The notes: generated from the sequence alone by a model not told the origin. DNA of 64,000 nucleotides from a virus (IMGVR_UViG_3300027708_000057:10354-74353), one strand, 5' to 3'; shown: positions 23,112 to 44,940, counted from the first letter of the stretch. Program-made: numbers and translations.

Positions 23112-23115
23112 ATTG

Positions 23116-23490: not shown

Positions 23491-23496
23491 AGATTA

Positions 23497-24139: not shown

Positions 24140-24250
24140 AACCACGATCAATTAGTTTTTCAAGTACTTCTCGCACTTCGGAATATTGTTCGGTTATTTT
24201 CATATATGAATATTCTATATTATTTTTGAAGCTTTGTAAATAATAAATTA

Positions 24251-24511
24251 TCAATAATCACATATATAAGGAAGCAGTCGTGTATCCTCATCCGGTCGCG
24301 ACTTGAGAGAAAGAGATTCACTTTCGCCAGTACATTTACCCCATCGAATAAATCCTGCAGAAATTGGTTTACGTGTTACTCGTTCCCAAGAACCCCACGA
24401 TTGATCTCGCATGTGAGAAATACTTTCAGCCATAATGTTATGCGGTACCGATTCAGGAAAGATAAAGATTTCTTCCATGCCAGCATCTTGGGTAGTTACA
24501 ATATATTTCAT
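24251..24511 (-). CDS. small hypothetical protein (paralog of 24508-24760)
   Basis: MKYIV..IFP..V.H...SAGFI...C.G.S.SL. Confidence 0.65.
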   Translation of the reverse strand: MKYIVTTQDAGMEEIFIFPESVPHNIMAESISHMRDQSWGSWERVTRKPISAGFIRWGKCTGESESLSLKSRPDEDTRLLPYICDY

Positions 24512-24760
24512 TCTTGAATTTTTAAGTTAAGTTCTTCTGCAATTGTTTCATCATCAAAAGATCCTCCAGATTCAATTCCTAGAGAATGCGAAGATCCATG
24601 GCAATGGATCTTTCCTTCATTATCAAAGTCAATATAACCGGCTCCAGTAATTGCTGAATGCGCAGATTGCTTGAGTAATGTTCCTGCATCAATGTGTTGT
24701 ACATATTCAGGAAAAATCATGAATCCTCCCAGCTCGTCTATTACATATTTAAGATTTTTC
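24508..24760 (-). CDS. small hypothetical protein (paralog of 24251-24511)
   Basis: LKYVI..IFP..V.H...GAGYI...C.G.S.SL. Confidence 0.65.
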
Positions 24761-24764
24761 ATAA

Positions 24765-25037
24765 TTATTCTTTTATAGTTGACCTTGTGCATAATGGGAA
24801 TGTACAACCCAGCATGAATCCAAAGTCATATAAATGGCCTGTATTAGAAACTGCATAAATCACAACATTAGAATCAAAAAAAGATATTAGAAATGAAATT
24901 GGAAGGATCATACCATGCCAAACCCCATGGAAGAATCCAGGAATATCAGTGGATACAACATTTGCAGAATCTGCACAACTCGATAAAAGTAGAGCAAATA
25001 ATACAAGGAATATTTTTGTCATTGTTTTGTTTTTCAT
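24765..25037 (-). CDS. small membrane lipoprotein
   Basis: Lipobox LSSC. PGFFHGVWHGMILP...NTG..YDFGF. Confidence 0.65.
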   Translation of the reverse strand: MKNKTMTKIFLVLFALLLSSCADSANVVSTDIPGFFHGVWHGMILPISFLISFFDSNVVIYAVSNTGHLYDFGFMLGCTFPLCTRSTIKE

Positions 25038-25134
25038 ATGTTTGTTTTTATGTAGGAAATTATTAAGTCTTGATGCGGGAACATGCTAATACACTCATAA
25101 TTTAACGTGGTTAAGTTGTGGTTTCCTTGCGGAA

Positions 25135-25899
25135 TTATTCTACACTATTTCTGACCCAGTGTAAACAAAAAAGTGTATAAAACTGAATTATTTTTTCACC
25201 GTTGATTTTCGACGGCTTACGCAATTTCTTTAGGTATTCCCACCCTTTTTCCAGAAAAATCCCGTATTTCATGAATTCTTTTGACTCGCCATACCAGCCA
25301 ATACCGAACGGGTTATGACATTCCACAATGATGATTTCTCCGGATTTCAGCTCTGCTACATCAATCGTTCCACACCAACTTTTCGGAATCTCAAGACCAA
25401 CTGGTAATGGCGGAGATTCCGATTCTTCCTCCTTCGGATCATGAGAGTACCAGCCATCACAAATCATTTCTCCATGGACAATATAATAACGTCCTTCTTT
25501 TACGATTTCAACAAGGGTTTGCAATTCATATGGTCCAACGGGAAGTTCATCATATACTTTTAAAGGATCATAGATAAATCCATCAAATCTCTTAAATGCA
25601 TCCGCAGGTTTCACAAACGTTTTTTCGTGAATATTATCAAGATCATTAGCGTACCAAATTTTCCGACCAGCAAATTCTTTTGTAAATTCTGGAAAATAAT
25701 CTGGAACAAATGTTCGATTCAGAGCTTTTTGAACAATCTCAACAGAACCAGAAATCATTACACCTTCTTCAATATCTTCATATGGAATTTCTGATAAATC
25801 TCTAAATAATCTTAATCTTCGATCAGTTTCCATTGCATATCTTGCTAATGCTTGAGATTCTCTAGAACCTCCATCAAACAAATGCCAAATATTTTTCAT
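25135..25899 (-). CDS. ATP-grasp domain protein (DUF4343/R2K-like)
   Basis: PDYFPE, TFVKP..KRFDG, EGRYYIVHG, GTIDVA, IIVECHN and GWYG. Confidence 0.75.
   Translation of the reverse strand: MKNIWHLFDGGSRESQALARYAMETDRRLRLFRDLSEIPYEDIEEGVMISGSVEIVQKALNRTFVPDYFPEFTKEFAGRKIWYANDLDNIHEKTFVKPADAFKRFDGFIYDPLKVYDELPVGPYELQTLVEIVKEGRYYIVHGEMICDGWYSHDPKEEESESPPLPVGLEIPKSWCGTIDVAELKSGEIIIVECHNPFGIGWYGESKEFMKYGIFLEKGWEYLKKLRKPSKINGEKIIQFYTLFCLHWVRNSVE
25137..25166 (-). promoter_or_regulatory. early-type sigma70 promoter
   Basis: GTTTACA-17-TAGAAT with upstream T tract. Confidence 0.7.
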
Positions 25900-25903
25900 A
25901 TTA

Positions 25904-26959
25904 TTAAATCTCAATGAAATCTTTCCAGATATATGCAGAATTTTTTACATACTTTTTTAGACCTCTTTTATGGAGATACACATTAATCTTTGGGAATGTA
26001 TATGATAAGCAAAGAGCATCAATCATACTTTTATGATCTGTCGCCTTTGCAGAAAACATTCTTGATGCCCATGGGATTTCTTTATGAGTAACAATTATTG
26101 GAACATTACAACTAATAAAATCTGCAGATACTATATTGAACGTCTCACTTAAACTTATTTGCATACCCATATCCATTGTCGCACATAATTCAAGGAATTC
26201 TGTCCGAGGGAGCCAATCATGACATATCAATTTATGCCCAATAGAATTCAAATGCTTGAACATCTCAAATAGATTCTTCATCGCACTATCACCTTTTTGT
26301 TCAATGCGACTACTATTAATATGAAAATGTAGTTTCTTTCCAATAATATTGACAAAATCTAATGCAGCAATAGCTTGTGCCAAATGATTCTTGAGAGGAC
26401 GAATAGCGCCAAAGCAAGCAATGTCAATATGGTCTTTACACTTATTAAGGTTCTTACAAGATAAATCATATACAGGATAGTAATTCGGTAAATAAACGAT
26501 CTTATCCTCAATATTATGAGTATGAAGAATTGTTTTAAGTACAATCTCCAGGGAATGTTCCATCCGGGGAGAATTAACCCCAACCATAACATTTGGAATA
26601 TGACAATATTCTCCAATCCATTTCAAAGCAATACCTTCACCTGCAAGAAATGGAACTTCAGAATGAATACGAACAACCCACTTGATTTTAGGATATAGTC
26701 TCTGGAGTTGTGCAAGTTTCTCAGGTGTTACCCATAAAGCTTCTATAATAACAAGAGTAGCCCTATGCTTTACAATTTCGTGTTCAATAGAGTTGGCATC
26801 ATGCACAACAGAAATATTACTAATATATCCATTCTCGATAAGCATATCGGAAACATATTTTGCTGAGTTATAAAGACCTGAACTTAAACTCAGATTACTA
26901 GAACTTTTCTCATTATAGATTTCACGATGTTTGAGAATGAAGAGAATAGATTGCGTCAT
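25904..26959 (-). CDS. GT-B (GT4-like) glycosyltransferase
   Basis: IACFGAIRPLKNH and MQISLSETFNIVSAD. Late promoter TATAAATA at 26969-26976. Confidence 0.75.
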   Translation of the reverse strand: MTQSILFILKHREIYNEKSSSNLSLSSGLYNSAKYVSDMLIENGYISNISVVHDANSIEHEIVKHRATLVIIEALWVTPEKLAQLQRLYPKIKWVVRIHSEVPFLAGEGIALKWIGEYCHIPNVMVGVNSPRMEHSLEIVLKTILHTHNIEDKIVYLPNYYPVYDLSCKNLNKCKDHIDIACFGAIRPLKNHLAQAIAALDFVNIIGKKLHFHINSSRIEQKGDSAMKNLFEMFKHLNSIGHKLICHDWLPRTEFLELCATMDMGMQISLSETFNIVSADFISCNVPIIVTHKEIPWASRMFSAKATDHKSMIDALCLSYTFPKINVYLHKRGLKKYVKNSAYIWKDFIEI

Positions 26960-30469: not shown

Positions 30470-31549
30470 TCAGCAATTAAAATACCACCCTCGATCAGTA
30501 AGTGTTAGTATTTGTTCAAATGCTGTTGTATATTGTTTACCACAAGTTTCAAGACTATACCTTGATCGTGCAATTTCAGCTACTTTACTACGATCTATAT
30601 CAGAACATTTTTCAATCGCTTCCAACCATTGTTGCAACATTTTACAGCGATAACCTGTAACTCCTTCAATTGAATTTGTTTCTTGAAAACAACCGTAATC
30701 AACACTAATCATTGGAGTTCCACAAAGAGCTGCTTCGATATTACTACCGCCTAGAGGTTCTATGTACTCAGTAGGAGCAAGAATTGCTCTCGCATTACCC
30801 AAAAACTTAGATCTGTCTTTGCCAGTAATAGGATCTCGAAATATAATTTTAGATTCCCTCCATGGAGTAGTATCACCTTGGCCACATGCAATAACTGGAA
30901 GGTTTATACGATTAGCAATTTCAGCGACGGTATTTAATCCTTTGGCTGAACAGATTCTCCCAAAGTATGCAATATATCCTTCAGGATTTAAATTAATATC
31001 CCAATCATCAATATCAAAATAATTCGGAATTACAAAATCAAAGTTCTTTCCAGAACTATTACTTTTGCCATAACAGAAATTACGCCATGCATGTGATTCA
31101 AAAATTTTAAAAGTTGATTCCATTTGATCTGGATAACCGATTCCACTTTCCACATGATAACAGTTCGGAAACAAAGAAACTACCTTTGAATGTGCAGTAC
31201 CAAATGGATGGCAAATTATATCTCCATCCTTAACATTATTAAGTAATGCAATTAATAATCTTTTTTCAAATTCTATATGATGTGGAGAACCAATTGTTGC
31301 AACGTCTCCATGGAAAATACTTTCTTTTCCAATAAGGGATTTGAGTTCGGTTTCAGAAAGAATTTGAATAATTCTATTACACCCCGATTCACTGTTTCCA
31401 TTCGAGTATTCAATACAATCCCAACCTTCTCGCTGCATCATTTTTGCCCATCTCAAGACTTTTCCTGTAAATGCACAATGAGAATATTCTTGATTTGGAA
31501 TTGTGTGAAACAATCCAATCATGTGAAGAGATGTCCTATTATTGCTCAT
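30470..31549 (-). CDS. GT-B (GT4-like) glycosyltransferase
   Basis: YFGRICSAKG and APTEYIEPLGGSNIEAALCGTP. Confidence 0.85.
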   Translation of the reverse strand: MSNNRTSLHMIGLFHTIPNQEYSHCAFTGKVLRWAKMMQREGWDCIEYSNGNSESGCNRIIQILSETELKSLIGKESIFHGDVATIGSPHHIEFEKRLLIALLNNVKDGDIICHPFGTAHSKVVSLFPNCYHVESGIGYPDQMESTFKIFESHAWRNFCYGKSNSSGKNFDFVIPNYFDIDDWDINLNPEGYIAYFGRICSAKGLNTVAEIANRINLPVIACGQGDTTPWRESKIIFRDPITGKDRSKFLGNARAILAPTEYIEPLGGSNIEAALCGTPMISVDYGCFQETNSIEGVTGYRCKMLQQWLEAIEKCSDIDRSKVAEIARSRYSLETCGKQYTTAFEQILTLTDRGWYFNC

Positions 31550-32063
31550 TATGAAGTTGAATTAGAAATTCTGTAACATCCAAAAATTCACCATTCCCAT
31601 ATTCTACTCCATAGAAATCATCACATTGATAATAACGATCTGTATCGATCCCGATCAAATCAATCTTATTCATATTATATTTCCATGGTAGATTATCGAT
31701 AAGAACATTATTTTTATGAGCCATAGCGCATGGACAAGTTGTTCCTCCTCCGTATACAGTTGATGCCCAATGATTGTTAATCATTTCTTTATGGAAAATA
31801 TGATCTTCATCAAACCCGAATTTACCCAGCTCATTAACTTTGGTAGCATAATCCTTGGTGGCAACAGTCAAAATATATACATTATCACGTCCAACGAGAT
31901 TACGAGAAAATTCAATAAGATCCAATGCTCTGGGATGAATGATTGAAAAATATCGTAATGCTCGTTCTCCAAGCACGAATGTGATATGATCCTGTTCTGG
32001 AGCAGGATATAAAGTATGAATTAGAGTCTCATCAAGGTCTATAAAAATACAATTGATTGCCAT
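31539..32063 (-). CDS. HAD-superfamily (NIF/FCP1-like) phosphatase
   Basis: IFIDLDETLIH and VLIDN. Confidence 0.75.
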   Translation of the reverse strand: MAINCIFIDLDETLIHTLYPAPEQDHITFVLGERALRYFSIIHPRALDLIEFSRNLVGRDNVYILTVATKDYATKVNELGKFGFDEDHIFHKEMINNHWASTVYGGGTTCPCAMAHKNNVLIDNLPWKYNMNKIDLIGIDTDRYYQCDDFYGVEYGNGEFLDVTEFLIQLHNEQ

Positions 32064-32916: not shown

Positions 32917-33366
32917 TTAGTTCCTTTGATTTTCATAATCTGATAAAACTTTTGCAATATTTACAGCACCAACCGAATTTGCACTATGTACATGCCATAC
33001 AGGAAGTGCTACATTAGCTTCTTTACATTTCTGCACTAACAATTGAGCACAATGATATCCGGTACTTTTTGGACTTAGATTTCCATATTCAATAAGATTA
33101 GTAAGTTGTGTAACTTTAAAGTAATGTTGAATATGTTCAAATGATAAATCATGATCAAATGAAACCATGGAAGGAATTCCATATTCATTAATAGCATTTT
33201 CAAATTCAGAATATGATCTTACAATATCCCAATCATGTGATTCAGTACTCGTTAGAACAAGTAATGAAATAGTTGCAACAAGACCTAAATCTTTTCTACG
33301 TACTCCCGACACAAATGCATCGGAAGGATTTCTCAGATCATCTAGAAAGAGATTGAATGGTTTCAT
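32917..33366 (-). CDS. cyclic-phosphate-processing receiver-like domain protein
   Basis: LFLDDLR, WDIVRSY, SFDHDL, TGY and VHSAN. Confidence 0.8.
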   Translation of the reverse strand: MKPFNLFLDDLRNPSDAFVSGVRRKDLGLVATISLLVLTSTESHDWDIVRSYSEFENAINEYGIPSMVSFDHDLSFEHIQHYFKVTQLTNLIEYGNLSPKSTGYHCAQLLVQKCKEANVALPVWHVHSANSVGAVNIAKVLSDYENQRN

Positions 33367-33914
33367 GTGAATTGTTTATCTAATTGATAATGGCAATTTT
33401 CAATAGCTTTAAAAATATCTTCATTCGAACAATTAAACATATTATATACAGGAATCCCTAAATCTTGTGCAATACGGATTGCTTGTCCGGTCCCTCCAAC
33501 AATCTCTCCTCCAGGTGTCCAACAAAGCACAAATTCTGAATTAGCTTCTCCATTACGTCCAACTATCTGTCGATAGTTTCTTGCCATCAATTTCAGACTG
33601 TTTGAATTTAGACTATTCATTTTAGGATGATACTTGGCGATAGATGCAAATGCTTCCTTATCATCAGGAAAAATTACTTCATAGATATGTTTAGGATATC
33701 TATTAGAAAATCCCTTATTGAATCCATAATATGGTAACCAAATCTGAGCTTCACTTTTAACTCCTGATGAAAATGCTTGATCTGAACCAATAGCATTTCC
33801 GGATCGTAATGTGTAACCTTTAATTTCGAGAACAATTGCTATTGCCCACATTCGATCTTGAATATCTTGTGGAGCTTTTCGGCTTCCAATACCAGCATAG
33901 AATTTTTTACTCAT
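33363..33914 (-). CDS. SLOG/DprA-like nucleotide-binding protein
   Basis: YAGIGSR, LRSGNAIGSD, RNYRQIVG and GGTGQAIRIA. Confidence 0.8.
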   Translation of the reverse strand: MSKKFYAGIGSRKAPQDIQDRMWAIAIVLEIKGYTLRSGNAIGSDQAFSSGVKSEAQIWLPYYGFNKGFSNRYPKHIYEVIFPDDKEAFASIAKYHPKMNSLNSNSLKLMARNYRQIVGRNGEANSEFVLCWTPGGEIVGGTGQAIRIAQDLGIPVYNMFNCSNEDIFKAIENCHYQLDKQFT

Positions 33915-35327: not shown

Positions 35328-35777
35328 TTAATGTGTTAAAATATATTGGCTCATTCGATATTTATCGAGAAGTGTTCCCGGGTTTAAATCATATGCGTTA
35401 TGTTCATTATCTGCCCATTTCACACGCCGAGCAAAGTAATTATCTTTTGCGCGAAGAACTGCATTGATATATGGTTCTTCACTATGTTTGGTCAATGCAT
35501 CAACGGCATCAGCAATGATAGAACCGAAACGACTATAAAGTTCATGACGATCCACCCAACTAACATCTTCAATAGTGTCATGTAAAAGTGCTACTGTATA
35601 CAAGATATCCCCCTCTAGAGTACTAAAGGGTTCGAACACTTTATCACATTTAGCCAAAACAATTTCTGCAGCCGCAATAGGATGAGTGATATAAGGAAGT
35701 CCAGAACCATTTCGTAATTGTCCTTGATGAGCAATTGTTGCAAATTCTAAAGCGTGTTCTTTGAGTGATTGTTTCAT
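35328..35777 (-). CDS. stand-alone RelA/SpoT-type HD hydrolase (small alarmone hydrolase-like)
   Basis: AHQGQLR.GSGLPYITHP, ALLHDTIED and VKWADNEHN. Confidence 0.85.
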   Translation of the reverse strand: MKQSLKEHALEFATIAHQGQLRNGSGLPYITHPIAAAEIVLAKCDKVFEPFSTLEGDILYTVALLHDTIEDVSWVDRHELYSRFGSIIADAVDALTKHSEEPYINAVLRAKDNYFARRVKWADNEHNAYDLNPGTLLDKYRMSQYILTH

Positions 35778-36832: not shown

Positions 36833-37963
36833 TTAGGAGAAGAATTGATCTAAGGAGTTACGAATTTGTGATGCAATTGGAATGCTTGAGTCTTGTCCTG
36901 TCCAATATGGGTAGAACTCACGACTAAGATGAATTGATTTAGGAGTTTCCATATATGCAAAATCGAGTTCGCCACTTGCATTAATAAGGTAATTAGTCCA
37001 TTTCTTAAAGGTAATAGTAGGATGAGAATCACATAGATTTTCAAGAGTATTATTAAATTCTGTCCGAACTGCATTTCGCTCAAGCCATGTTCCCCAAAAT
37101 GGCTTTCCTTTATAGAACCCGGTCTTAGGAATCTTTCGAGATGGATTTTCAATAGGTAACAATTCATACAATACAATATTAGGAATTGTTAATTCTTTTG
37201 CGGCATTAAAATAGCGTGTTGCTAATTCCTTTGCATTATGAATATGATTGCCTTCTAGACGGCATAGGTGATGGCGAACATCAATATTTCCAAAATAACA
37301 TTCTAAATATTTAACTTCATTTAGCGGACGAATTTCTTCAACAAATGAACTTAATCCGCTGGTCAATGCACCATTCAATGTTTTAGACTTAACAGAGTTA
37401 ACTGTCCAGCCTGGGCGATACATACAAATTGCGTGAGAATCACCAATTACAACCTTATCAGTAATGTGAGGAAATGGAACACATTGCATAGATTCGACCA
37501 TTTTACCCAGATTATCCATGTCTACATCATACCAACCTGGTTGAATAACCCAAGTACCTTTAACTTCTGCTGAATGTAGCCTTCTTTTAAGAAGCGTATG
37601 ATATTCTGGGCATTGTACTCCCAAAGAGTATACTTTTCCTTTAAATTTTGATACATTGATAACATTGGATAGATATAGAAATCCGTATACTCCATTATAT
37701 AAATTTATAACTTTATTCCAATCAGATCCATGGTAAAGGAACATATCATCAAACTCATTATGATTTGTTATTGTTTTAGCTCGCCAATCAATAACAACTT
37801 CATCATACTTACCAGATTGTTTGATCATATCAGCATAGATGACACCTAAGGCTGATCTATGAGAACCCAATATAGATGTAATTGGAACAAACGGACATGT
37901 AACTAGTGCTCTTCTTGTAGTAGTCATATATGTTAGGAAAATATTAGAGTAGCATATGTCCAA
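36833..37963 (-). CDS. protein with C-terminal SGNH/GDSL-like domain, DNA-modification operon
   Basis: VIGDSHA, YFGNIDVRHH and terminal SIHLS. Confidence 0.55.
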   Translation of the reverse strand: MDICYSNIFLTYMTTTRRALVTCPFVPITSILGSHRSALGVIYADMIKQSGKYDEVVIDWRAKTITNHNEFDDMFLYHGSDWNKVINLYNGVYGFLYLSNVINVSKFKGKVYSLGVQCPEYHTLLKRRLHSAEVKGTWVIQPGWYDVDMDNLGKMVESMQCVPFPHITDKVVIGDSHAICMYRPGWTVNSVKSKTLNGALTSGLSSFVEEIRPLNEVKYLECYFGNIDVRHHLCRLEGNHIHNAKELATRYFNAAKELTIPNIVLYELLPIENPSRKIPKTGFYKGKPFWGTWLERNAVRTEFNNTLENLCDSHPTITFKKWTNYLINASGELDFAYMETPKSIHLSREFYPYWTGQDSSIPIASQIRNSLDQFFS

Positions 37964-39138
37964 TCTGAATATTGAGGAAGTTCCTTTACCTTTTTTATAT
38001 ATTGGATAGGGGTTAATCCAGCAGATCGTATTACTTGATCTGAGAAAAATCCTCCAGAAAGATTATTAAAAGATTTTACCAATCCTAAATCCAGCATAGC
38101 CTTTTGCCTGCCGTATGGATGAATAAGTTTACTTGAATTCCATAAAGTATCACCATCAATATGATTATAATCAGAACCTGAACGGTAATAATTTGTAATG
38201 TATCGAATAAAATCACAAGCAACATCTTCTGCATTATAAGGCTCTGACCCAGTATCTTCAAAGATTTGCATCATAATAGCATCCAACAAATCATCTGTTT
38301 TCATTTTAACCTTAGTTTTTGCAAGGTATGAAATACATTCTGTTGCATTACTACCATAATAAAATAAAGAATTTCGATTAACATACTGAGGAAACCAATC
38401 TGCAATATCAGAGATTGTTGCTGCATACTGGAAGAAGTATTTTCTAAGACCATTCTTAACATTCCAATCTAGCATAAAAGTACCAATCTCACGCAGGTCT
38501 TTTTTATTACCCTTTACCAACCAATCTGCTAATTCTCTTGCAAGACGAGGAGCATACTCACATAAGTAATAATCACCACCCCGTTTATATTCGGATGGTG
38601 GTTTAGGAAATGCTGGAAATTGATATCCAACTGAAGAATAAAAAGAATTCTTTTCGTTTTTAATCATATGACACATCTTTTCAATACTATCGGCTCGATA
38701 AAGTTTTGATAATATTGTATTGTAATACCCCGACGGTCTTAATGAATAATTAATACCTGAGCCACATACACGATGTAAAATGAATATGTATAGCCATTCA
38801 GGTAAACCAAACTGTGATTGTTTGCCGGTCCAATCATGTGCTATAACATTCCTCTGTTCACAATAAAGACCGGCGCTCATCTTTTTCCAATACGGATGAT
38901 CTTCTGACCAACCATAAAAACAATCATGTATAATCTGTGAAAATCCTGCATATGATCTTTCAACAACATCATATAACTCAATCTGCTCCATAAGGTCATC
39001 TCCTATACCAGATTGAGCATGTGGAATCATTCCATACGGAGGATCTTGTGAAACATTACATTTCTTCTGTTGTTCCTTGGCGAAATTATAATAACGAATA
39101 AATTCATTATAATATTCAGTTTTTTCAATTAAAGACAT
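37933..39138 (-). CDS. putative DNA base hypermodification enzyme (aGPT-Pplase/HhH-like)
   Basis: LHRVCGSG, GYQFPAFPKP and C-terminal NAEDVACDF resembling the ExxxC motif. Operon context with gp42. Confidence 0.5.
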   Translation of the reverse strand: MSLIEKTEYYNEFIRYYNFAKEQQKKCNVSQDPPYGMIPHAQSGIGDDLMEQIELYDVVERSYAGFSQIIHDCFYGWSEDHPYWKKMSAGLYCEQRNVIAHDWTGKQSQFGLPEWLYIFILHRVCGSGINYSLRPSGYYNTILSKLYRADSIEKMCHMIKNEKNSFYSSVGYQFPAFPKPPSEYKRGGDYYLCEYAPRLARELADWLVKGNKKDLREIGTFMLDWNVKNGLRKYFFQYAATISDIADWFPQYVNRNSLFYYGSNATECISYLAKTKVKMKTDDLLDAIMMQIFEDTGSEPYNAEDVACDFIRYITNYYRSGSDYNHIDGDTLWNSSKLIHPYGRQKAMLDLGLVKSFNNLSGGFFSDQVIRSAGLTPIQYIKKVKELPQYSDWTYATLIFS

Positions 39139-39139
39139 A

Positions 39140-39490
39140 TTAATCTTTTTTGTAAGGGCGATTTAGAAAATCATGATCTAGATTTTGACCATTAATCTTT
39201 CCACGAGAATATGCAATTGCGAAAGATAGGTAATTAATTGCATCCTTAAAACTGTCTTCAAAAGATTCAAAATTAGGTTCATATGTAGGATCATTTGTCA
39301 TGGCTTCAATAACAGATCGAGCTCTAAGAATCTTAGCATGTACAATATCAACAATTGTAGATACACCATTGAGATAGTAGTCGGCTTGTTTAATCCGCGA
39401 ATATGGATTTTGATAATCTCGAGATTTTAATTTTTGAGTCTCAATACATTCTTTGAGAACTGTTACAGATTCAGCTTGAATTTGATTCAT
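39140..39490 (-). CDS. nucleotide-modification-associated small helical protein (DUF1599/Nmad-like)
   Basis: KSRDYQ, K..R and ESFEDSFKDAINY. Confidence 0.6.
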   Translation of the reverse strand: MNQIQAESVTVLKECIETQKLKSRDYQNPYSRIKQADYYLNGVSTIVDIVHAKILRARSVIEAMTNDPTYEPNFESFEDSFKDAINYLSFAIAYSRGKINGQNLDHDFLNRPYKKD

Positions 39491-39538
39491 TTAGTTTTAG
39501 TTATAGAGATTTTAAGAAGCGATTTGGGACTCTTAGGT

Positions 39539-40243
39539 TCAACAATATGTGATATTATTTACTAAGTAAAGATAGTCTTCAATATATTTGAAATGACGTT
39601 CATATAAATGTAGTGATCCTACCTGCCAAGTAATGTTCCCTTTTAAGAGAGGATTATCTCCATTAACTCCATTGTAATCACTAATAAGAGAATTAAGCAT
39701 ATATTCCTGCCATGCATAATCATTGGCATATCCGAAGATGAGATCATTGCTCCTCATTTGCACAACTGCATGCATTTTACTACTACGAATTAGATATTGA
39801 ACAGTATTTGTGCAAATAAAATCAGACATACCATCCTTATTATAATCAGTATGCATGGTAGGCCTTGTGTAAATCATGACAGCACGACGACTATGGGGAT
39901 TAATAAGCAGTTCGTTAAGAACGTTTATATATTGATCTCCGTTTTTATATGAATCAACAAGGTATCCATAATTCGAATTGATGAGACCTTCAGGAGATGC
40001 GACTTCTTGCCAAATCTTAGGCGTAACACCGCGAATATCATTCACGTTAAGAGATTGAGATTGATACCATTCAAGTTCTCTCGCAATATATTCTATATTA
40101 GGTTTACCAAAAATAGCCGGTTCATCTGCAATAAAACTTGTACCAACCAATTCAATAGTTTTTACTCCGCTCTTATCAATTACAAATTCACTTGTTTGAT
40201 ACTTTACTAATAATTGGCGTCGTATTGATTCTACATTATCCAT
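39539..40243 (-). CDS. gp42: dCMP hydroxymethylase (gp42-like, thymidylate synthase fold)
   Basis: INSNYG, MSDFICTNTVQYLIR, MRSNDLIFGYANDYAWQ (Asp at the pyrimidine-specificity position) and GSLHLYERH. Confidence 0.88.
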   Translation of the reverse strand: MDNVESIRRQLLVKYQTSEFVIDKSGVKTIELVGTSFIADEPAIFGKPNIEYIARELEWYQSQSLNVNDIRGVTPKIWQEVASPEGLINSNYGYLVDSYKNGDQYINVLNELLINPHSRRAVMIYTRPTMHTDYNKDGMSDFICTNTVQYLIRSSKMHAVVQMRSNDLIFGYANDYAWQEYMLNSLISDYNGVNGDNPLLKGNITWQVGSLHLYERHFKYIEDYLYLVNNITYC

Positions 40244-40420
40244 ATGTATTTAATATTATACGTTATTTTTATCTAATAGTAAACAACAAAAACGAAAATA
40301 ATTGACTCACTACTATAAACAAGCGGCTTAGGAAGATGGTAAAAATCCATGAGACTTTCAATTCCTTTATCTTATCGGATATTCTACTGTAGATGGTTGT
40401 AAGTTGTCTCAAACTATGGG

Positions 40421-41362
40421 TTATAACGACTTACACACGAAAGCTAGCGCTCTAACTGCCTCAGTTTCGAGAGGCCGATTTTTGTACCATCCACCAGTGG
40501 CTGTATCAATTTCCGAACAAAGAACAGCAATCTCGTGTGATGAAATTGGATACCCTCGGCGCATAGCCGATGATGCGATTGACACCATTATCTGATACAT
40601 CTTGCTATACCAACCTGTTTCTGATATATGTCGATATTCAGCAATGAGTGTATGATTGACGAAAGGACAATCTAAGTATGACTTCCAAGAATATGATGTA
40701 TTAGTCAGTTTCTCTTTTCGATATGCAATAATTCGTTCACGTATTTCTGGTGATAGACTATCCACTAATGAGTTTGAACTCATAGAAATGAATGGATGGG
40801 TTTCCATTAGCTCATTAGGATTAATCATAGAAGCATCCTTATGAGAGAATATGAATTGGTATGAATCTGGATATTGTGCCGGGATGTAGTACATTCTAGA
40901 TAAATCCTTTGTTTGTGGATCACTCAATGATTTAAATTCCTTATTCAATGCATATACGAAATGACGAATTTTATTTGCAGGAACAGATGATAGTAAAGGA
41001 AGTACTACTCGAAATTTTGGTTTTTTGTATGTACTAGAAGATGTTGAATAACATACAAACCTATTTGTTTTAAATACAGCAACAGCATCTTCAAAAGGTG
41101 TATCATAATTATCAACATCCATACATGCCCATGACGCCCATTCTAAAACATTTTCATTTTTTCGGGTAGTACCTTCTTTAAAGATAGCCGGAGTAATTAA
41201 AGGAGATGCATTTTTAATGCGCTCTCCCTTTTTAGGTTTATATCCTGGTTCTTTAGATAGGTTATACAACAAAGTCTCAAACATATCCCAGGAATTAAAA
41301 TCCATACGTCGATGGGTTTTATTATCAAAGATTGACGTAAAGATTGTTAATGAATACTTCAT
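40421..41362 (-). CDS. AEP-type primase-like protein
   Basis: MDVD, YSTSSS, KFRVVLPL and DPQTKDLSRMYYIP. Confidence 0.7.
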   Translation of the reverse strand: MKYSLTIFTSIFDNKTHRRMDFNSWDMFETLLYNLSKEPGYKPKKGERIKNASPLITPAIFKEGTTRKNENVLEWASWACMDVDNYDTPFEDAVAVFKTNRFVCYSTSSSTYKKPKFRVVLPLLSSVPANKIRHFVYALNKEFKSLSDPQTKDLSRMYYIPAQYPDSYQFIFSHKDASMINPNELMETHPFISMSSNSLVDSLSPEIRERIIAYRKEKLTNTSYSWKSYLDCPFVNHTLIAEYRHISETGWYSKMYQIMVSIASSAMRRGYPISSHEIAVLCSEIDTATGGWYKNRPLETEAVRALAFVCKSL

Positions 41363-41363
41363 A

Positions 41364-41870
41364 TTAGGTTGTATGATTTAGAGCAGTTTGAATTACTCCC
41401 AAGTTATCTTTATGACAAGGAGCCTGCCACCCAAACTCCTTGATAAGATCCGGTAATGAAAGTGGATTTGGTCTACTTGCTTTAATACCTACTTTTTTAT
41501 TCATATTAGCAATCAATACTTTATTCCAGGCTGTTCTAAAGTCAACTCCAAGAAGATCTAACGTGCCTACGGCAACAACAACGAGGTCAATAATGCTATC
41601 AACAACTCCGTCTCCATCTTTGTCATCAATCGCTTTAAACCCTTCTGTAACTTCCTCTTGAAGGAATCGGAAGCGGAATGAAATAAATTCCTTAAGTTGT
41701 TCTGGACTAAGTTTTTCCATCGCTTGATGAATACCATAATAAGAGTGCATAAGATTCATATCATCTTGTACTACTCCTGGATTAATAATACTATTCTCAT
41801 ATTCATCATTTCTGATAAATGCTTCTTTTTTGTAACCCCATTTTATTTGTGCTTGTTCAATTGTCATCAT
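41364..41870 (-). CDS. MazG-like/PRA-PH NTP pyrophosphohydrolase (candidate dCTPase)
   Basis: FLQEEVTE, VVDSIIDLVVVAVG, ANMNK and PDLIK..GWQAP. Confidence 0.8.
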   Translation of the reverse strand: MMTIEQAQIKWGYKKEAFIRNDEYENSIINPGVVQDDMNLMHSYYGIHQAMEKLSPEQLKEFISFRFRFLQEEVTEGFKAIDDKDGDGVVDSIIDLVVVAVGTLDLLGVDFRTAWNKVLIANMNKKVGIKASRPNPLSLPDLIKEFGWQAPCHKDNLGVIQTALNHTT

Positions 41871-41916
41871 ATAGATATTATATATTTTATTATAGTGTTT
41901 GTAAATATAAAAGATA

Positions 41917-42919
41917 TTAACAAAAGAAATCACTAAGATCAGATAATGGTATAGCCTTCCAGTTAATTGCGTCCAAAATTAATTGTAATGGGGAGATAAA
42001 TGTCTTTTCGAATAATAAATCTCTATCTACATATTTGTCAAGATCAAATTCTGTTGGAAGTTTATCAAGGAACGCAATTACGTTTTCTCCTGTAGGATTG
42101 CCTTTACGAAGGAAGATATATTTAATACGATCACCTCCTTTAATATATTGGTGCTTGTTTGTCAATCCCATAGTTTTTATTAAGTGATTATACATGATAG
42201 ATGCCCTACTATTCATAGGGGTTCCTTTGATATATGGAACTTTAATTCCATTTGCTCCTACCTTTTGAATATATTTTTTAATATTAGTAAGACCACGAGG
42301 AAATGCAATCTTTTCAATTGGTTCTTGTTCAAACTCTTCTCGAAATCGTTCCACCTCTGTCTGAATTTCCAATTCAGATGCTGCCATAAGAAGTTTAAAT
42401 AACTTTTTAAATTCAGTTCGACAAATCTTAGGTGTTGAAGATTTAATAGCCTCAATACCTTTCATAACAAGTTTAGGTTCTTTATAGACTACCCCTTCAC
42501 TTGAAATTACATTGAATATGTATCTTTTTTTCGCTTGGATAATTCCAACAGAACAAATTTTTTCTGTTTTCATAACCATAGTGTTCTTATATGTATTAAC
42601 TTTCAAAGCTAATTCAGAATATGCTTTTTCAATAACAGGTTCTAAAGCACTTCTTCCAAAATCTAAAAGAAATTGATGAGGATCTCTTGGCTTGCATTTA
42701 TCAACGACATCTCCGAGATGAGTGGCAATTGAATCAGTGTCGGACATAAGGATTCGATCATTAAAAGTAGAATCTTTTAATGAGGTTGATAAGAAATTAT
42801 TTACGGCATGTTCAGCTGTTTGTACTGCTAATTGACCAGATAACGTAATAGCTTCTGCAATGTCAATATTATAATATCGGAAAAACCTATTTGAAAATGC
42901 TCCATAGCAGGAATTTAAT
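41917..42919 (-). CDS. gp43B: DNA polymerase gp43B, exon 2
   Basis: Frame is open from 42918: LNSCYGAFSNRFFRYY...AEAITLSGQ...DTDS (motif C), KKRY, KGIEAIKSSTP and C-terminal clamp-binding LSDFF. Confidence 0.92.
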
Positions 42920-43164
42920 CATTTATGTTAAGTATGATTCGTTAATTTCATACTCAGTATTACTACTGCTTATAGTTTCCTATAAGATCAGACTATATCT
43001 TCAACTCAGAGAGTTGTCATGCGCTTCCACTCACTTGAGTGTACTCCTTACGGATAGTCGTTGCACCTTCTATTTCTAGCTTGGCTCAGGATTAGCATAT
43101 TAAAGCCTTCCCTGAATTCACATGAAGTTTACCTCTATATTGCTATAGAGGGTCCCATTAGTTT
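42920..43164 (-). ncRNA. group I intron (245 nt, no ORF) in gp43B motif B
   Basis: Exon ends in U and intron ends in G. P1 UCCU/GGGA, P10 UAAU/AUUA, P2 CCUCUAUA-GCAA-UAUAGAGG, P GAAUUCAGGGAA, Q AAUCCUGAGC, R GUGCAACGACUA, S AAGAUAUAGUC. Splicing restores KILLNSCYG. Confidence 0.93.
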
Positions 43165-43244
43165 AGGATTTTAAGACCCATTTGTTCATTATTAAGTCGA
43201 TCAATTTCAATTTCCAATTCTCTTTTTCTTTTTTCTATATTCAT
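43165..43244 (-). CDS. gp43B: DNA polymerase gp43B, exon 1
   Basis: MNIEKRKRELEIEIDRLNNEQMGLKI(L), the second fingers helix leading into motif B. Confidence 0.88.
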
Positions 43245-43446
43245 ATTATTTTGTTTACGTTTTTCAAAATGATACCTGGTCATATTGCTAACTTTACTAT
43301 GACAGTCGCAATGGGGACTTATCATTAACTTTAAATTTCTAGGATTATGCAGATACGGTGTGGTTTTTTAATATGATTTAGAGACATATCTGGGCATAAT
43401 ATGATGCTTTTATAAAAACACATCATACTAAATTCTCTATATGGGA
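43245..43446 (-). pseudogene. relic of an HNH (Mob-like) homing endonuclease
   Basis: One frame reads *KHHIMPRYVSKSY*KTTPYLHNPRNLKLMISPHCDCHSKVSNMTRYHFEKRK: an HHIxP..N..NL HNH start fused to a CPHC..M.RYHF tail. Confidence 0.7.
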
Positions 43447-44940
43447 TTATTTTAACAATTCTAATTCTTTCTGAGCTTCAATCATTCGTCTCTTTACAAG
43501 AACTCTATTCATATAGATATCTTCCATAAGAGCTCCAAGAAACCCCTGTTTATCTCGTTTAAAGCAACAACCATTTGCTGCTATTGCTAAGTTTTCCTCA
43601 GGAGACCATTGTTTTCTATCAATATTTTCTAATATCTTTTCTGGTGTAATTCCCGGAACTTTCATATGAGGTACAATAGTTTCTGGGCTCATATTATATT
43701 GAATGATAGTATTTGGATATAGACTATTTAAATCATATGTCATTACCCAATCAAACCGGCCTTTGTGAGCTTCTTTAACATAACCTCCTTCATATTCAGT
43801 TTTAAAAGAAACTTCATTTTGAGGAATTGCAATACGTTTATTAGCAAGATATCTAAAGATAATAGCATCCCAAATTGCAACAGTTCCTAATGTATCATTA
43901 TAATTAGTACCTGCATAATATGATAAAGTAAATACTAGATTGATTGTTCCTAGCTTTTCTTCAAGCTTTGTAATAAGTTCAATATCGACGAGATTGTATG
44001 AACAGTAGAAATCATAATCCTTTTCATATAGTTCAGTAAGATTTGAATAGCCAGATTCTCCATAATTAATCTTACCTTCTCCAAGGACGAGATCGGCAAT
44101 AAAATCTAGCTTGTGTGACTCTTGTTTACCGTAAGTATTTAAACTGAATTTAATAAATAAATCAAGATAATCTAATTGTTGAACTCCACTGATATCAAAG
44201 AATGTACAGTCCTTGCCAGTTTTATCTATCTTAGTTCTTTGAGAAATATTATTCCATGGAGATAATCTTTTAGCTTCATCTGATCCTAAAACTCTTGATA
44301 ATCGATTGATTAAATATGGAACATCATATAATTTTGTATTCCATCCAGTAATTACATCAGGTGTATTCATGGGGTCAGACCACCATGTAATAAAATCTGA
44401 TAACATTTCGTGTTCAGAATCAAATTCTCTACGCTCAAGATTAATATGAGGAACTAGAGACTTGTCTTGATCGAAATGTTTTGTCCCCCACTGAATATAA
44501 TGAGAATGAGTAGATGCTTTCAAACCGATGAGAGTAATTTCTTGATCGGCAACTGTAGACTCCGTAAATTCTCCCGTAGAAGAAACCATATTTTCTATAT
44601 CTAGGAAGCAAATCTCAATTCTGCTTGACTTAAATTGAATCTTATCTGGAAACTTTTCTTGAATATATGATATGATATGCCGATCATTTCCATAAATCTT
44701 AAAAGACTTGATATCTTCATAAGTCTTTTGAAAGTTTCTACAATCACTCATTGACTCAAATTTCATTTCTTCAACTGGTGTACCTTCAAGTGTATGCCAA
44801 AGAGTATCTGAACTTTTTGCTTCGAGATACATTGTAGGCTTATACTTGATTTTATTGTAAATCTTTCGTCCATCTGCATCATATCCTCTATAGAGAATAT
44901 TATTCATATGGCGGTCAACACAAGTGTAAAATTCAATCAT
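43447..44940 (-). CDS. gp43A: DNA polymerase gp43A (exonuclease, motif A, first fingers helix)
   Basis: FLDIE, GWNTKLYDVPY, YNLVD, YEGGYV and DLNSLYPNTI. Stops after RRMIEAQKELELLK. Confidence 0.95.
   Translation of the reverse strand: MIEFYTCVDRHMNNILYRGYDADGRKIYNKIKYKPTMYLEAKSSDTLWHTLEGTPVEEMKFESMSDCRNFQKTYEDIKSFKIYGNDRHIISYIQEKFPDKIQFKSSRIEICFLDIENMVSSTGEFTESTVADQEITLIGLKASTHSHYIQWGTKHFDQDKSLVPHINLERREFDSEHEMLSDFITWWSDPMNTPDVITGWNTKLYDVPYLINRLSRVLGSDEAKRLSPWNNISQRTKIDKTGKDCTFFDISGVQQLDYLDLFIKFSLNTYGKQESHKLDFIADLVLGEGKINYGESGYSNLTELYEKDYDFYCSYNLVDIELITKLEEKLGTINLVFTLSYYAGTNYNDTLGTVAIWDAIIFRYLANKRIAIPQNEVSFKTEYEGGYVKEAHKGRFDWVMTYDLNSLYPNTIIQYNMSPETIVPHMKVPGITPEKILENIDRKQWSPEENLAIAANGCCFKRDKQGFLGALMEDIYMNRVLVKRRMIEAQKELELLK

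What the first reader, a model, noticed from the sequence alone, without database searches (positions are those of the whole stretch)
36833..41870. dCMP-hydroxymethylase operon with aGPT-like and SGNH-like partners: candidate new cytosine hypermodification
Seen: tightly linked gp42-like enzyme (RSNDLIFGYAND, Asp = cytosine type), Nmad-like protein, a 401-aa ExxxC protein and a GDSH/SGNH-like protein, downstream of gp43, MazG and a primase-like gene. No glucosyltransferase or obvious kinase is in the cluster. Known: aGPT-Pplase-like enzymes are described mainly on hmU DNA, while T4 hmC is glucosylated. Inference: hmC is decorated by a different chemistry (amino acid, amine or acyl group).
Basis: partly seen in the sequence, partly recalled or inferred. 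Interest (0 to 1): 0.72.

Follow-up and report, generated by a model that had tools for sequence, protein, structure and literature searches.

The report
Kinase-less hydroxymethylcytosine DNA decoration module
An uncultured freshwater T4-like phage makes hydroxymethylcytosine as T4 does, but next to that gene it has, instead of a sugar-adding enzyme, a conserved pair of enzymes (a relative of the amino-acid:DNA transferases of thymine-modifying phages, and an acetyl-esterase-fold protein), so its DNA probably carries a cytosine decoration that nobody has yet identified chemically.

Summary
On the minus strand, tightly packed behind a split gp43, lie six genes:
- a MazG-like pyrophosphatase;
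- a primase-like gene;
- a true T4-type dCMP hydroxymethylase. It is 58-61% identical to T-even gp42 and keeps the RSND/ND/DFxC residues, so it is not the 5-hydroxycytosine type;
- a weak DUF1599/Nmad1 protein;
- a 401-aa protein;
- a 364-aa protein.

The 364-aa protein has an SGNH acetyl-esterase/O-acetyltransferase-fold domain with Ser, Gly, Asn and His invariant, behind an unassigned N-terminal domain.

The two are fused in other phages, including cultured Aeromonas phage 44RR2.8t. That phage has a T4-type gp42 and, according to the literature, no glucosyltransferase.

Most of the 586+ related viral loci add a second transferase paralogue and/or a homologue of the M6 PLP decarboxylase. This window has the bare two-gene form. 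I found no DNA kinase.

Best reading: post-replicative substitution at the hydroxymethyl of hmC. The product is unknown.

The scan reached the same reading before on other genomes. This is a new variant of a known kind.

The parts
41364..41933 (-). MazG-like nucleotide pyrophosphohydrolase (189 aa by the GTG start). It is probably the dCTP-depleting enzyme, a functional analogue of T4 gp56.
   Evidence: Pfam PRA-PH E 3.6e-6 and phrog_671. The closest phage relatives are annotated as MazG-like pyrophosphohydrolases in Rhizobium, Ochrobactrum and Microbacterium phages. It is syntenic in 28 of the 80 related loci. The dCTPase role is inferred.
40421..41362 (-). Primase-like 313-aa protein, conserved in the synteny. 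It probably belongs to replication rather than to modification.
   Evidence: phrog_9765 'DNA primase' E 1.4e-50, no Pfam match. Found between the MazG and Nmad1 genes in 18 loci.
39539..40243 (-). T4-type dCMP hydroxymethylase (gp42 homologue), which makes 5-hydroxymethyl-dCMP.
   Evidence: 61% identical to gp42 of Tequatrovirus phages. 58% identical to RB32 gp42 and only 25% to the RB69 5hoC synthase. It keeps RSND (ThyA D169), Asp at the N177 position and DFICTN (Asp at the L143 position and the catalytic Cys).
39140..39490 (-). 116-aa all-helical DUF1599/Nmad1-like protein. Role unknown.
   Evidence: PF07659 E 0.003, 18.3 bits, below the cut-off of 25. phrog_1485 E 1.4e-9. Syntenic in 41 of 80 loci, and also present in a T7-like contig.
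37933..39138 (-). 401-aa HhH-glycosylase-fold enzyme of the aGPT-Pplase/AADT/HMUDK_hel superfamily, with invariant E304 and C308. It is the predicted hmC-DNA group transferase.
36833..37927 (-). 364-aa two-domain protein. The N-terminal alpha/beta domain (1-148) is unassigned. The C-terminal part (about 150-343) is an SGNH hydrolase/acyltransferase domain with S164, G186, N214 and H333 invariant. An alternative TTG start lies at 37963.
41917..44940 (-). Split family-B DNA polymerase gp43 (N part 44940-43447, C part 42747-41917) at the head of the gene row. Context only.
   Evidence: Pfam DNA_pol_B and phrog_262.

Best explanation
The cluster is a pathway that decorates 5-hydroxymethylcytosine in phage DNA after replication.

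Steps with direct support or a close precedent:
- The MazG-like enzyme and the gp42 homologue replace dCTP by hm-dCTP. The phage polymerase then builds hmC DNA, as in T4.

Inferred steps:
- The 401-aa enzyme flips out hmC.
- Cys308 adds to C6 of the base, with Glu304 as the general acid.
- The C5-CH2-O-X group leaves, giving an exocyclic methylene intermediate.
- A nucleophile (an amine, an amino acid or a similar group) is added. This is the mechanism shown for PaMx11 gp46, M6 gp51 and ViI gp247 on phosphorylated hmU.

Role of the SGNH protein: it is the obligate partner, fused to the transferase in other phages. It stands where the thymine systems have a P-loop DNA kinase. My preferred sub-hypothesis, which is weaker, is that it makes the hydroxyl a leaving group by O-acylation, most likely acetylation. 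Less likely, it trims the adduct.

Most relatives mature the adduct with a PLP decarboxylase and/or carry a second transferase paralogue. This window has only the two-enzyme core, so its end product should be the unprocessed adduct.
For: hmC supply:
- T4-type residues, and 58-61% identity to T-even gp42. The criterion comes from PMC13326640.

Transferase:
- BFVD hits include a 56%-identical protein named 'Amino acid:DNA transferase domain-containing' and several 5-hmdU DNA kinase helical-domain proteins, at probabilities of 0.95 to 1.0.
- E304 and C308 are invariant in 51 diverse homologues. They match the ExxxC that is invariant in clade-2 AADTs and present in three of four clade-1 proteins (the Cys is invariant in all four). 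This motif is essential in M6 gp51 and ViI gp247 (PMC8989533) and is the C6 nucleophile in PUGT (PMC11472151).

Partnership of the two proteins:
- Gene fusions.
- Adjacency or near-adjacency in 65 of the 80 loci.

Amino-acid chemistry:
- The recurrent inserted gene fam1 is homologous to the M6 gp52 decarboxylase (hhalign 95%, E 2.8e-8).
- It occurs with the core alone in the L052 and L072 types of cluster. In those clusters the core itself must install its substrate.

Base specificity:
- The module travels with cytosine-type synthases in T4-like phages and in a T7-like podovirus. A complete 225-kb phage also holds a synthase homologue, whose type I did not determine.

No kinase and no T4 glucosyltransferases in two complete relatives.

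All SGNH matches are enzymes that handle acetyl esters.
Against: - There are no chemical data on any phage with this module.
- The 401-aa family is not detected by Pfam ADDT or HMUDK_hel. hhalign against small AADT and HMUDK_hel profiles is not significant.
- I could not see the residue-level structural superposition of E304/C308 on E243/C247.
- SGNH enzymes are not known to act on DNA, and no acyl donor is evident.
- The window lacks the PLP enzyme that supports the amino-acid reading in relatives.
- The kinase search used a two-sequence profile and had no positive control.
- The record is only 41% complete.
Confidence: 0.6

Rival explanations
1. The two-gene core is an hmC-DNA O-acyltransferase and nothing more. 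The SGNH domain transfers an acetyl or other acyl group to the hydroxymethyl. The 401-aa helical protein is only the DNA-binding, base-flipping partner, as the HMUDK_hel protein is for the 5-hmdU DNA kinase. In this window the end product would then be 5-acyloxymethylcytosine. Substitution by an amine would happen only in relatives that carry the second paralogue (fam0).
For: - The C-terminal motif of the 401-aa protein (E-D-x-x-C-D-F-x-R-Y) is closer to clade-1 HMUDK_hel (E-H-T-L-C-E-F-D-K-Y) than to clade-2 AADT.
- ESM-Atlas neighbours carry HMUDK_hel, not ADDT.
- The C-terminal part of 44RR ORF233c hits HMUDK_hel weakly (E 0.0036).
- The architecture, a catalytic domain plus a helical domain, mirrors that of the SP10 5-hmdU DNA kinase.
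- A second ExxxC paralogue exists in many relatives (hhalign 96%).
- 5-carbamoyloxymethylcytosine is a precedent for an O-substituted hmC (PMC8670742).
Against: - Clusters with the core plus the PLP decarboxylase homologue but without fam0 (L052 and L072 types) need an amino-acid adduct, and only the core could make it.
- An invariant Glu/Cys pair would be unnecessary in a mere binding subunit.
- An acetoxymethyl pyrimidine is a reactive ester and may be too labile for a packaged genome. This last point rests on chemical reasoning, not on a test.
Confidence: 0.2
2. The pair does not modify the phage's own DNA. It could be a counter-defence or repair function. For example, the HhH-fold protein could act as a DNA glycosylase or lyase, or as a binder of modified bases, and the SGNH protein could be an esterase acting on a host molecule such as a signalling nucleotide, a cell-wall acetyl group or a lipid.
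For: - SGNH relatives act on sugars, lipids and peptidoglycan.
- Neighbouring genes include HD, cREC and SLOG-like proteins of possible signalling roles.
Against: - The best matches are DNA-base transferases rather than glycosylases, and the ExxxC motif of those transferases is invariant.
- The pair sits next to the hmC synthase across T4-like lineages, and within 7 kb of one in a T7-like phage.
- Relatives carry a homologue of a DNA-acting PLP decarboxylase.
Confidence: 0.1
3. The chemistry acts on free nucleotides before replication. hm-dCMP or hm-dCTP would be derivatised by the pair and then incorporated, with the Nmad1 and MazG-like proteins handling the nucleotide pools.
For: The cluster is embedded among nucleotide-metabolism genes: MazG, the synthase, a dCMP deaminase in L013, and a thymidylate-kinase-like gene in L102.
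Against: - All characterised members of the superfamily act on DNA polymers (PMC8989533, PMC11472151).
- The 401-aa fold is that of DNA base-flipping enzymes.
- A polymerase would have to accept a bulky C5 adduct.
Confidence: 0.07

Closest known systems
Thymidine hypermodification pathways of phages PaMx11, M6, ViI, PhiW-14 and SP10: dUMP hydroxymethylase, 5-hmdU DNA kinase with an HMUDK_hel helical domain, amino-acid:DNA transferase (AADT, or aGPT-Pplase clade 2), and PLP decarboxylase and other tailoring enzymes
   Same: - A thymidylate-synthase-type hydroxymethylase supplies a C5-hydroxymethyl pyrimidine.
- A helical HhH-glycosylase-fold enzyme with an essential ExxxC motif is present.
- Relatives carry a homologue of the M6 gp52 PLP decarboxylase and two helical paralogues.
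   Different: - The base is cytosine, not uracil.
- No P-loop DNA kinase was found. An SGNH-fold two-domain protein, often fused to the helical enzyme, stands in its place.
- The 401-aa family lies outside the Pfam models ADDT and HMUDK_hel.
- This window lacks the tailoring enzymes.
T4 hmC glucosylation (gp42, gp56, alpha- and beta-glucosyltransferase)
   Same: - The same hmC synthase type, 58-61% identical.
- The same genomic position: in T4 the gene after gene 42 is b-gt, and in RB32 it is the beta-alpha-glucosyltransferase gene.
- There is a faint resemblance between the N-domain of the SGNH protein and T4 beta-GT residues 28-101 (hhalign 23%, E 9e-4). This is a lead only.
   Different: - No AGT or BGT family match over the cut-off in this record or in two complete relatives.
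- The partner enzymes have transferase and esterase folds, not the GT-B fold.
5-hydroxymethylcytosine carbamoyltransferase, which makes 5-carbamoyloxymethylcytosine (MetaGPA study, PMC8670742)
   Same: A non-sugar decoration of hmC in DNA of environmental phages that carry a dCMP hydroxymethylase.
   Different: A different enzyme family. The paper does not mention SGNH, DUF1599 or Nmad proteins. No carbamoyltransferase is present here.
Arabinosyl-5-hydroxycytosine pathway of RB69 and DLP3 (PMC13326640)
   Same: A T4-like phage with a thymidylate-synthase homologue and downstream modification genes in place of the T4 glucosyltransferases.
   Different: Those synthases carry Asn at ThyA position 169 and make 5-hydroxycytosine. 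This one keeps Asp and is only 25% identical to RB69 gp48. No arabinose-pathway genes are present in the cluster.

Membership tests
T4-type dCMP hydroxymethylase (gp42) | High sequence similarity to experimentally characterised T-even gp42 | tested here: met
   61% identity over 95% of the protein to gp42 of Tequatrovirus phages. 58% identity to RB32 gp42. Pfam Thymidylat_synt E 5e-17.
T4-type dCMP hydroxymethylase (gp42) | Asp at ThyA N177 (cytosine specificity), an acidic residue at ThyA L143 (water access), the catalytic Cys, and Asp kept at ThyA D169 (Asn here marks 5hoC synthases) | tested here: met
   The alignment shows MRSNDLIFGYANDY and SDFICTN, the same pattern as RB32 gp42. RB69 gp48 has RSQN instead. 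The criteria come from PMC13326640.
Amino-acid:DNA transferase (AADT, aGPT-Pplase clade 2, Pfam PF18724) | Match to the family's sequence profile | tested here: not met
   No PF18724 hit for the protein, for 51 homologues or in the six-frame search of the record. hhalign against a 9-sequence AADT profile gives probability 1.9%. A 56%-identical UniProt protein does carry the name 'Amino acid:DNA transferase domain-containing'.
Amino-acid:DNA transferase (AADT, aGPT-Pplase clade 2, Pfam PF18724) | The fold of PaMx11 gp46 (two helix bundles, HhH-glycosylase-like) | tested here: met
Amino-acid:DNA transferase (AADT, aGPT-Pplase clade 2, Pfam PF18724) | Essential Glu-x3-Cys on a C-terminal helix (E243/C247 in PUGT) | tested here: met
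   E304 and C308 are invariant in 51 homologues and lie on helix 300-314. E243, T244 and C247 are invariant in the AADT alignment. I could not inspect the residue-level superposition.
Amino-acid:DNA transferase (AADT, aGPT-Pplase clade 2, Pfam PF18724) | Transfers an amino acid or amine to an activated C5-hydroxymethyl pyrimidine in DNA | not testable with these tools
   This needs an enzyme assay or nucleoside mass spectrometry.
5-hmdU DNA kinase helical domain (HMUDK_hel, aGPT-Pplase clade 1, Pfam PF18723) | Match to the family's sequence profile | tested here: inconclusive
   One of 51 homologues hits at E 0.01, and there is none in the record. The 44RR fusion protein hits at E 0.0036, below the cut-off. 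hhalign against a 4-sequence profile is not significant but does align the E-x3-C-[DE]-F-x-[KR]-Y motifs. 11-14% of members of the neighbouring ESM-Atlas clusters carry PF18723. BFVD structural hits to HMUDK_hel proteins have probabilities of 0.95-0.99.
5-hmdU DNA kinase helical domain (HMUDK_hel, aGPT-Pplase clade 1, Pfam PF18723) | Partnered with, or fused to, a P-loop DNA kinase | tested here: not met
   No P-loop kinase lies in the cluster. No M6/PaMx11-type kinase turned up in the record, in two complete relatives or in 44RR (the profile is shallow). The partner is an SGNH protein instead.
SGNH/GDSL hydrolase-acyltransferase superfamily | SGNH fold (a three-layer alpha/beta/alpha, flavodoxin-like arrangement) | tested here: met
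SGNH/GDSL hydrolase-acyltransferase superfamily | Catalytic Ser (block I, GDS), Gly (block II), Asn (block III) and His (block V) | tested here: met
   G162-D-S164-H, G186, G213-N214-I-D216 and S331-I-H333 are invariant in 30 homologues, including the fused forms. The usual Asp three residues before the His is not conserved. I assigned the blocks by pattern, not from a residue-level superposition.
Nmad1 / DUF1599 (PF07659) | Match to the family profile above Pfam's gathering score | tested here: not met
   18.3 bits against a cut-off of 25. 17.8 bits, E 2.8e-4 for the record. So it is a probable distant relative only. The equivalent gene in L072 matches DUF6378.
T4 alpha- and beta-glucosyltransferases (PF11440, PF09198) | Presence of a family member in the phage | tested here: not met
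   No match over the cut-off in this record, in G002 (99% complete) or in G004 (100% complete). This record is only 41% complete, so absence from this phage itself is not proven.

The most novel reading that the evidence does not exclude
The SGNH protein would be the first DNA-base O-acyltransferase. It would activate the hydroxymethyl of hmC as an ester, doing the job of the ATP-dependent DNA kinase of the thymine pathways. The ExxxC enzyme would then swap the ester for an amine or an amino acid. This would make an ATP-independent, acyl-activated route to a new class of aminated cytosines. The route would be widespread in aquatic T4-like and T7-like phages and present in the cultured Aeromonas phages 44RR2.8t, 31 and 25. 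The N-terminal domain of the SGNH protein may descend from the DNA-binding half of T4 beta-glucosyltransferase.
Probability: 0.3. Interest if true: 0.85.

Novelty: new variant of a known kind. Interest (0 to 1): 0.74.

Why it matters
- **Gap in known chemistry.** Known cytosine hypermodifications in phage DNA are sugars on hmC or 5hoC, and a carbamoyl group on hmC. Amino-acid or amine transfer is known only for thymine. This module would extend that chemistry to cytosine and would do without the DNA kinase.
- **It is not rare.** About 940 protein clusters match at E <= 0.001, and at least 586 IMG/VR loci encode a relative. They come from freshwater and marine T4-like phages. The module also occurs in a T7-like podovirus and in a 225-kb phage.
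- **A question from 2010.** Petrov et al. 2010 (PMC2993671) noted that Aeromonas phages 44RR, 31 and 25 carry gene 42 but no glucosyltransferase. The same review left open, for such gt-less phages (it named RB69 and JS98), whether their hmC is further modified. Those Aeromonas phages encode the fused form of this enzyme pair and a T4-type gp42. They are cultured, so the question is directly testable.
- **Practical reach.** New DNA base chemistry affects restriction and CRISPR evasion, sequencing bias in viromes, and enzymatic tools for labelling hmC.

Tried and rejected
**Close relatives among sequenced phages.**
- Megablast of the cluster and tblastn of the 401-aa protein against 50,697 phage records found nothing.

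**Sequence-level family assignment of the 401-aa protein.**
- Pfam on the protein and on 51 homologues gave nothing usable.
- A profile search of PDB sequences gave no hit.
- Six-frame searches of the record with PF18724 and PF18723 gave no hit.
- hhalign against M6 gp51 alone, against a 9-sequence AADT profile and against a 4-sequence HMUDK_hel profile was not significant in any case.
- The superfamily assignment therefore rests on fold, motif and context.

**The 5-hydroxycytosine reading (RB69 type).** Rejected, because ThyA D169 is kept and identity to RB69 gp48 is 25%.

**The GT4 glycosyltransferase at 30470-31549 as the hmC glycosyltransferase.** Set aside. It is absent from all 80 related loci, and its closest relatives are in cyanophages. 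It is not excluded.

**C-terminal half of 44RR ORF233c against the 401-aa family.** BLASTP and hhalign were negative. Only the weak HMUDK_hel Pfam hit links them.

**A guess at a third aGPT Pfam accession.** PF18725 turned out to be an unrelated HEPN family.

**Papers.**
- Iyer et al. 2013 (NAR), which defined the aGPT-Pplase and Nmad families, is not held. What I say about it comes from citations in PMC8989533.
- Searches for hydroxymethylcytosine with SGNH found no paper.

**Tools and coverage.**
P0173 found no locus there.
Both VIA searches were filled by the SGNH domain.
- The promoter and terminator scan was uninformative.

Full report
**What is there.**

The window is part of a 74-kb viral contig, estimated at 41% complete, from a T4-like phage with about 32% G+C. 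It has no close relative among 50,697 sequenced phages.

On the minus strand a tightly packed gene row reads as follows.

| Gene | Coordinates | Evidence |
|---|---|---|
| gp43 N part | 44940-43447 | Pfam DNA_pol_B, phrog_262 |
| gp43 C part | 42747-41917 | same |
| MazG-like pyrophosphohydrolase | 41933-41364 | PRA-PH E 3.6e-6 |
| Primase-like protein, 313 aa | 41362-40421 | phrog_9765 E 1.4e-50 |
| Thymidylate-synthase homologue, 234 aa | 40243-39539 | see below |
| Helical protein, 116 aa | 39490-39140 | DUF1599/Nmad1 match below the cut-off: 18 bits against 25 |
| 401-aa protein | 39138-37933 | see below |
| 364-aa protein | 37927-36833 | see below |

For the last gene a TTG at 37963 gives 376 aa. 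Homologues start at the ATG at 37927.

The spacing is -17 to 177 nt. There is no terminator-like site on the coding strand.

**The synthase makes hmC, not 5-hydroxycytosine.**

This had to be checked. Lee et al. 2026 (PMC13326640) showed that many 'gp42-like' enzymes of T4 relatives, including RB69 gp48, are flavin-dependent 5-hydroxy-dCMP synthases. They are recognisable by Asn at ThyA position 169.

The window's enzyme is 61% identical to gp42 of true T-even phages. It is 58% identical to RB32 gp42 and 25% identical to RB69 gp48.

It has R-S-N-D (Asp169 kept) and Asp at the N177 position, which marks cytosine specificity. It also has D-F-I-C-T-N, with an acidic residue at the L143 position and the catalytic Cys. 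This is exactly the T4 pattern. RB69 has R-S-Q-N.

**The 401-aa protein.**

- It has no Pfam or PHROG match.
- It belongs to a large, well conserved family. About 940 protein clusters match at E <= 0.001, most at 60-70% identity. There are 141 representatives at the 50% clustering level.
- The AlphaFold model built from 51 diverse homologues is very confident: pLDDT 95.9, pTM 0.93.
- Foldseek's best solved match is PaMx11 gp46 (PUGT, 8z2n), the 5-phosphomethyl-dU glycinyltransferase, at probability 0.90.
- Among predicted viral structures, a 56%-identical protein carries the UniProt name 'Amino acid:DNA transferase domain-containing protein' (E 1.9e-39). The next named hits are the SP10 5-hmdU DNA kinase and the helical-domain proteins of phiRSL1 and PhiW-14, at probabilities 0.95-0.99.
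- The family's invariant residues include E304 and C308 on helix 300-314.
- In PUGT, E243 coordinates the metal that contacts O4, and C247 is proposed to attack C6.
- In M6 gp51 and ViI gp247, mutating either residue abolishes activity.
- I confirmed that E243, T244 and C247 are invariant in nine diverse AADTs.
- Clade-1 proteins (M6 gp55, PaMx11 gp50 and others) end in E-H-T-L-C-E-F-D-K-Y. This resembles the window's E-D-V-A-C-D-F-I-R-Y even more closely.

Sequence-profile tests, however, fail. Pfam ADDT and HMUDK_hel do not hit. hhalign against my small AADT and HMUDK_hel profiles is not significant.

I therefore place the protein in the superfamily by fold, motif and context. It is a new clade, not a member of either Pfam family.

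**The 364-aa protein.**

- The model has pLDDT 89.
- In an unbiased comparison with 48,161 chains, every one of the top 50 rows is an SGNH enzyme. They are overwhelmingly acetyl-esterases (PAF acetylhydrolase, sialate and xylan acetylesterases) and O-acetyltransferases (OatA, PatB, OafB).
- The residues that give the family its name are invariant in 30 homologues: S164 in G-D-S-H, G186, N214 in G-N-I-D, and H333 in S-I-H-L-S.
- The N-terminal alpha/beta domain (1-148; invariant S22, H23, N75, G79) is unassigned.
- There is a faint lead for that domain. hhalign aligns residues 33-106 with T4 beta-glucosyltransferase residues 28-101 (probability 23%, E 9e-4), matching N-L-[FY]-G-G to I-N-F-F-G-G. 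Pfam's T4 beta-GT model also touches the same domain of a relative at 15 bits, below the cut-off.
- From memory, Asn70 of beta-GT is involved in base flipping. I did not verify this.

**The two proteins work together.**

- In seven metagenomic proteins of 639-790 aa, the SGNH protein is fused N-terminally to the 401-aa family.
- Of the 80 IMG/VR loci fetched (586 of 597 candidates were confirmed), 65 have both genes within a few kb of each other on the same strand.
- The usual order is polN, polC, MazG, primase-like, Nmad1, hydroxymethylase, 401-aa gene, 0-3 inserted genes, SGNH gene.

**What the inserted genes say.**

Two families recur between the two core genes.

- fam1 (about 300 aa, 40 loci) is a fold-type II PLP enzyme. 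It is homologous to M6 gp52, the PLP decarboxylase that acts on the amino acid attached to DNA (hhalign 95%, E 2.8e-8 over 215 columns). It also shows weak similarity to cysteine synthase.
- fam0 (about 330 aa, 47 loci) is a paralogue of the 401-aa family, with its own E-D-K-x-C (hhalign 96%, E 4e-9).

Some clusters have the core plus fam1 only (L052 and L072 types). Some have the core plus fam0 only (L048 type). Many have both. This window and its 93%-identical relative L003 have neither. tblastn with family representatives finds nothing elsewhere in the window.

Where fam1 occurs with the core alone, the core itself must install the amino-acid adduct that a decarboxylase needs. This is my main reason for preferring 'transferase' over 'mere binding subunit' for the 401-aa protein.

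**The module follows cytosine-type synthases across phage lineages.**

- A T7-like podovirus contig (L102/L103) has a single-subunit RNA polymerase, T7-type SSB, endonuclease I, primase-helicase, family-A polymerase and an integrase. It carries Nmad1, SGNH, the 401-aa homologue and fam1. It also carries a thymidylate-kinase-like gene and a synthase with R-S-S-D ... Y-D and K-D-I-P-C-T, which is again the cytosine and hydroxymethyl pattern.
- Two complete relatives both encode a synthase homologue: G002 (160 kb, 99% complete) and G004 (225 kb, with terminal repeats).
- Neither has a T4 alpha- or beta-glucosyltransferase over the cut-off.
- Neither matches an M6/PaMx11 DNA-kinase profile. That profile is shallow and the search had no positive control.

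**Link to cultured phages.**

- The SGNH protein has homologues at 26-31% identity in 38 Aeromonas T4-like phages (44RR2.8t, 31, 25, Aes508 and others), in Stenotrophomonas IME13 and in Tenacibaculum phages.
- In 44RR2.8t it forms the N-terminal 340 residues of ORF233c (795 aa), which lies next to a sodium:solute symporter.
- The C-terminal part of ORF233c gives a weak HMUDK_hel match (E 0.0036, profile positions 198-275).
- 44RR2.8t has a T4-type gp42: M-R-S-N-D ... R-N-D and D-F-M-C-T-N, 56% identical to the window's enzyme.
- Petrov et al. 2010 listed 44RR, 31 and 25 among phages that have genes 42 and 56 but no glucosyltransferase. The review called it unknown, for such phages (naming RB69 and JS98), whether the hmC carries another modification.
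- The RB69 case has since been resolved as arabinosyl-5hoC. The Aeromonas case, as far as I could find, has not.

**Mechanism.**

Supported by close homology: hmC is supplied as in T4.

Inferred from the fold, the invariant Glu/Cys pair and the precedent of PUGT, M6 gp51 and ViI gp247:
1. The 401-aa enzyme flips out hmC.
2. Cys308 adds to C6.
3. The substituent on the C5 methylene is expelled.
4. A nucleophile is captured.

The thymine systems make the hydroxyl a leaving group by phosphorylation. Here no kinase is found, and an SGNH protein is the constant partner. All its structural relatives make or break acetyl esters. I therefore propose activation by O-acylation, at about 0.3 confidence.

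The main alternative is that the acyl ester is itself the product in this minimal cluster, with the helical protein acting as the base-flipping partner, as HMUDK_hel does for the kinase.

The nucleophile, the acyl donor and the role of the Nmad1-like protein are unknown.

**Novelty and standing.**

I found no paper that describes this pathway. The MetaGPA study, which discovered 5-carbamoyloxymethylcytosine, does not mention these families.

The scan has met the same module before on other genomes, and earlier follow-ups reached the same reading. I reached mine before I read them.

This window adds four things:
- the bare two-gene form of the module;
- the explicit exclusion of the 5hoC type of synthase;
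- the T7-like carrier;
- the tie to the cultured Aeromonas phages and to the 2010 question.

It is a new variant of a known kind of system. Everything rests on computation; no chemical evidence exists yet.

Noticed in passing
window 30470-32063 (-): A GT4-type glycosyltransferase (359 aa) overlaps a NIF/HAD-type phosphatase (174 aa). The glycosyltransferase is 53% identical to one in the freshwater cyanophage S-CBWM1 and 29% to those of ACG-2014f cyanophages. It is absent from all 80 related loci. Its target is unknown; it could be DNA, a virion protein or host glycan.
   Followed up: partly
window 32917-33914 and 35328-35777 (-): A cREC_REC 'cyclic-phosphate processing receiver' domain protein (E 2e-18) overlaps a 183-aa SLOG/DprA-like protein. 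An HD_4 domain protein, of the (p)ppGpp-hydrolase type, lies 1.4 kb upstream. Together they may be a nucleotide-signal or counter-defence set.
   Followed up: no
window 18616-26959 (-): This is a run of RNA-repair or ADP-ribose-type genes: an RNA ligase (18616-19695), a NADAR domain protein (22536-23168, E 4.5e-38) and an R2K ATP-grasp protein (25135-25914). Several 270-350-aa ORFs among them have no family match.
   Followed up: no
L001 4441-8421 (Aeromonas phage 44RR2.8t, record 160422-164402): In the cultured Aeromonas phage the fused SGNH-helical protein ORF233c sits directly after a 507-aa sodium:solute symporter (SSF, E 6e-53). A symporter is an odd gene for a phage. It may import the group that is attached to DNA.
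   Followed up: partly
L013 9546-9998 and 15943-17145: One relative has a dCMP deaminase between the hydroxymethylase and the transferase genes. It also has a C5-cytosine DNA methyltransferase directly after the SGNH gene. A methyltransferase is unexpected in a genome that should contain no plain cytosine.
   Followed up: no
L102 1-11352 and L103: A T7-like podovirus contig of 37 kb, with an integrase next to the RNA polymerase, carries the module (Nmad1, SGNH, transferase, PLP enzyme) plus a cytosine-type synthase and a thymidylate-kinase-like gene. The module therefore moves between phage families.
   Followed up: partly
window 36833-37927, residues 33-106 of the protein: The N-terminal domain of the SGNH protein aligns weakly with T4 beta-glucosyltransferase residues 28-101 (hhalign 23%, N-L-F-G-G against I-N-F-F-G-G). 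It occupies the genomic place that b-gt has in T4. It may be a remnant of the DNA-binding half of a glucosyltransferase.
   Followed up: partly
L072 7665-8762: In the variant gene order (SGNH, transferase, PLP enzyme, polymerase), the genes upstream are a calcineurin-like phosphoesterase and a DUF6378 protein. The DUF6378 protein takes the place of the Nmad1-like gene.
   Followed up: no
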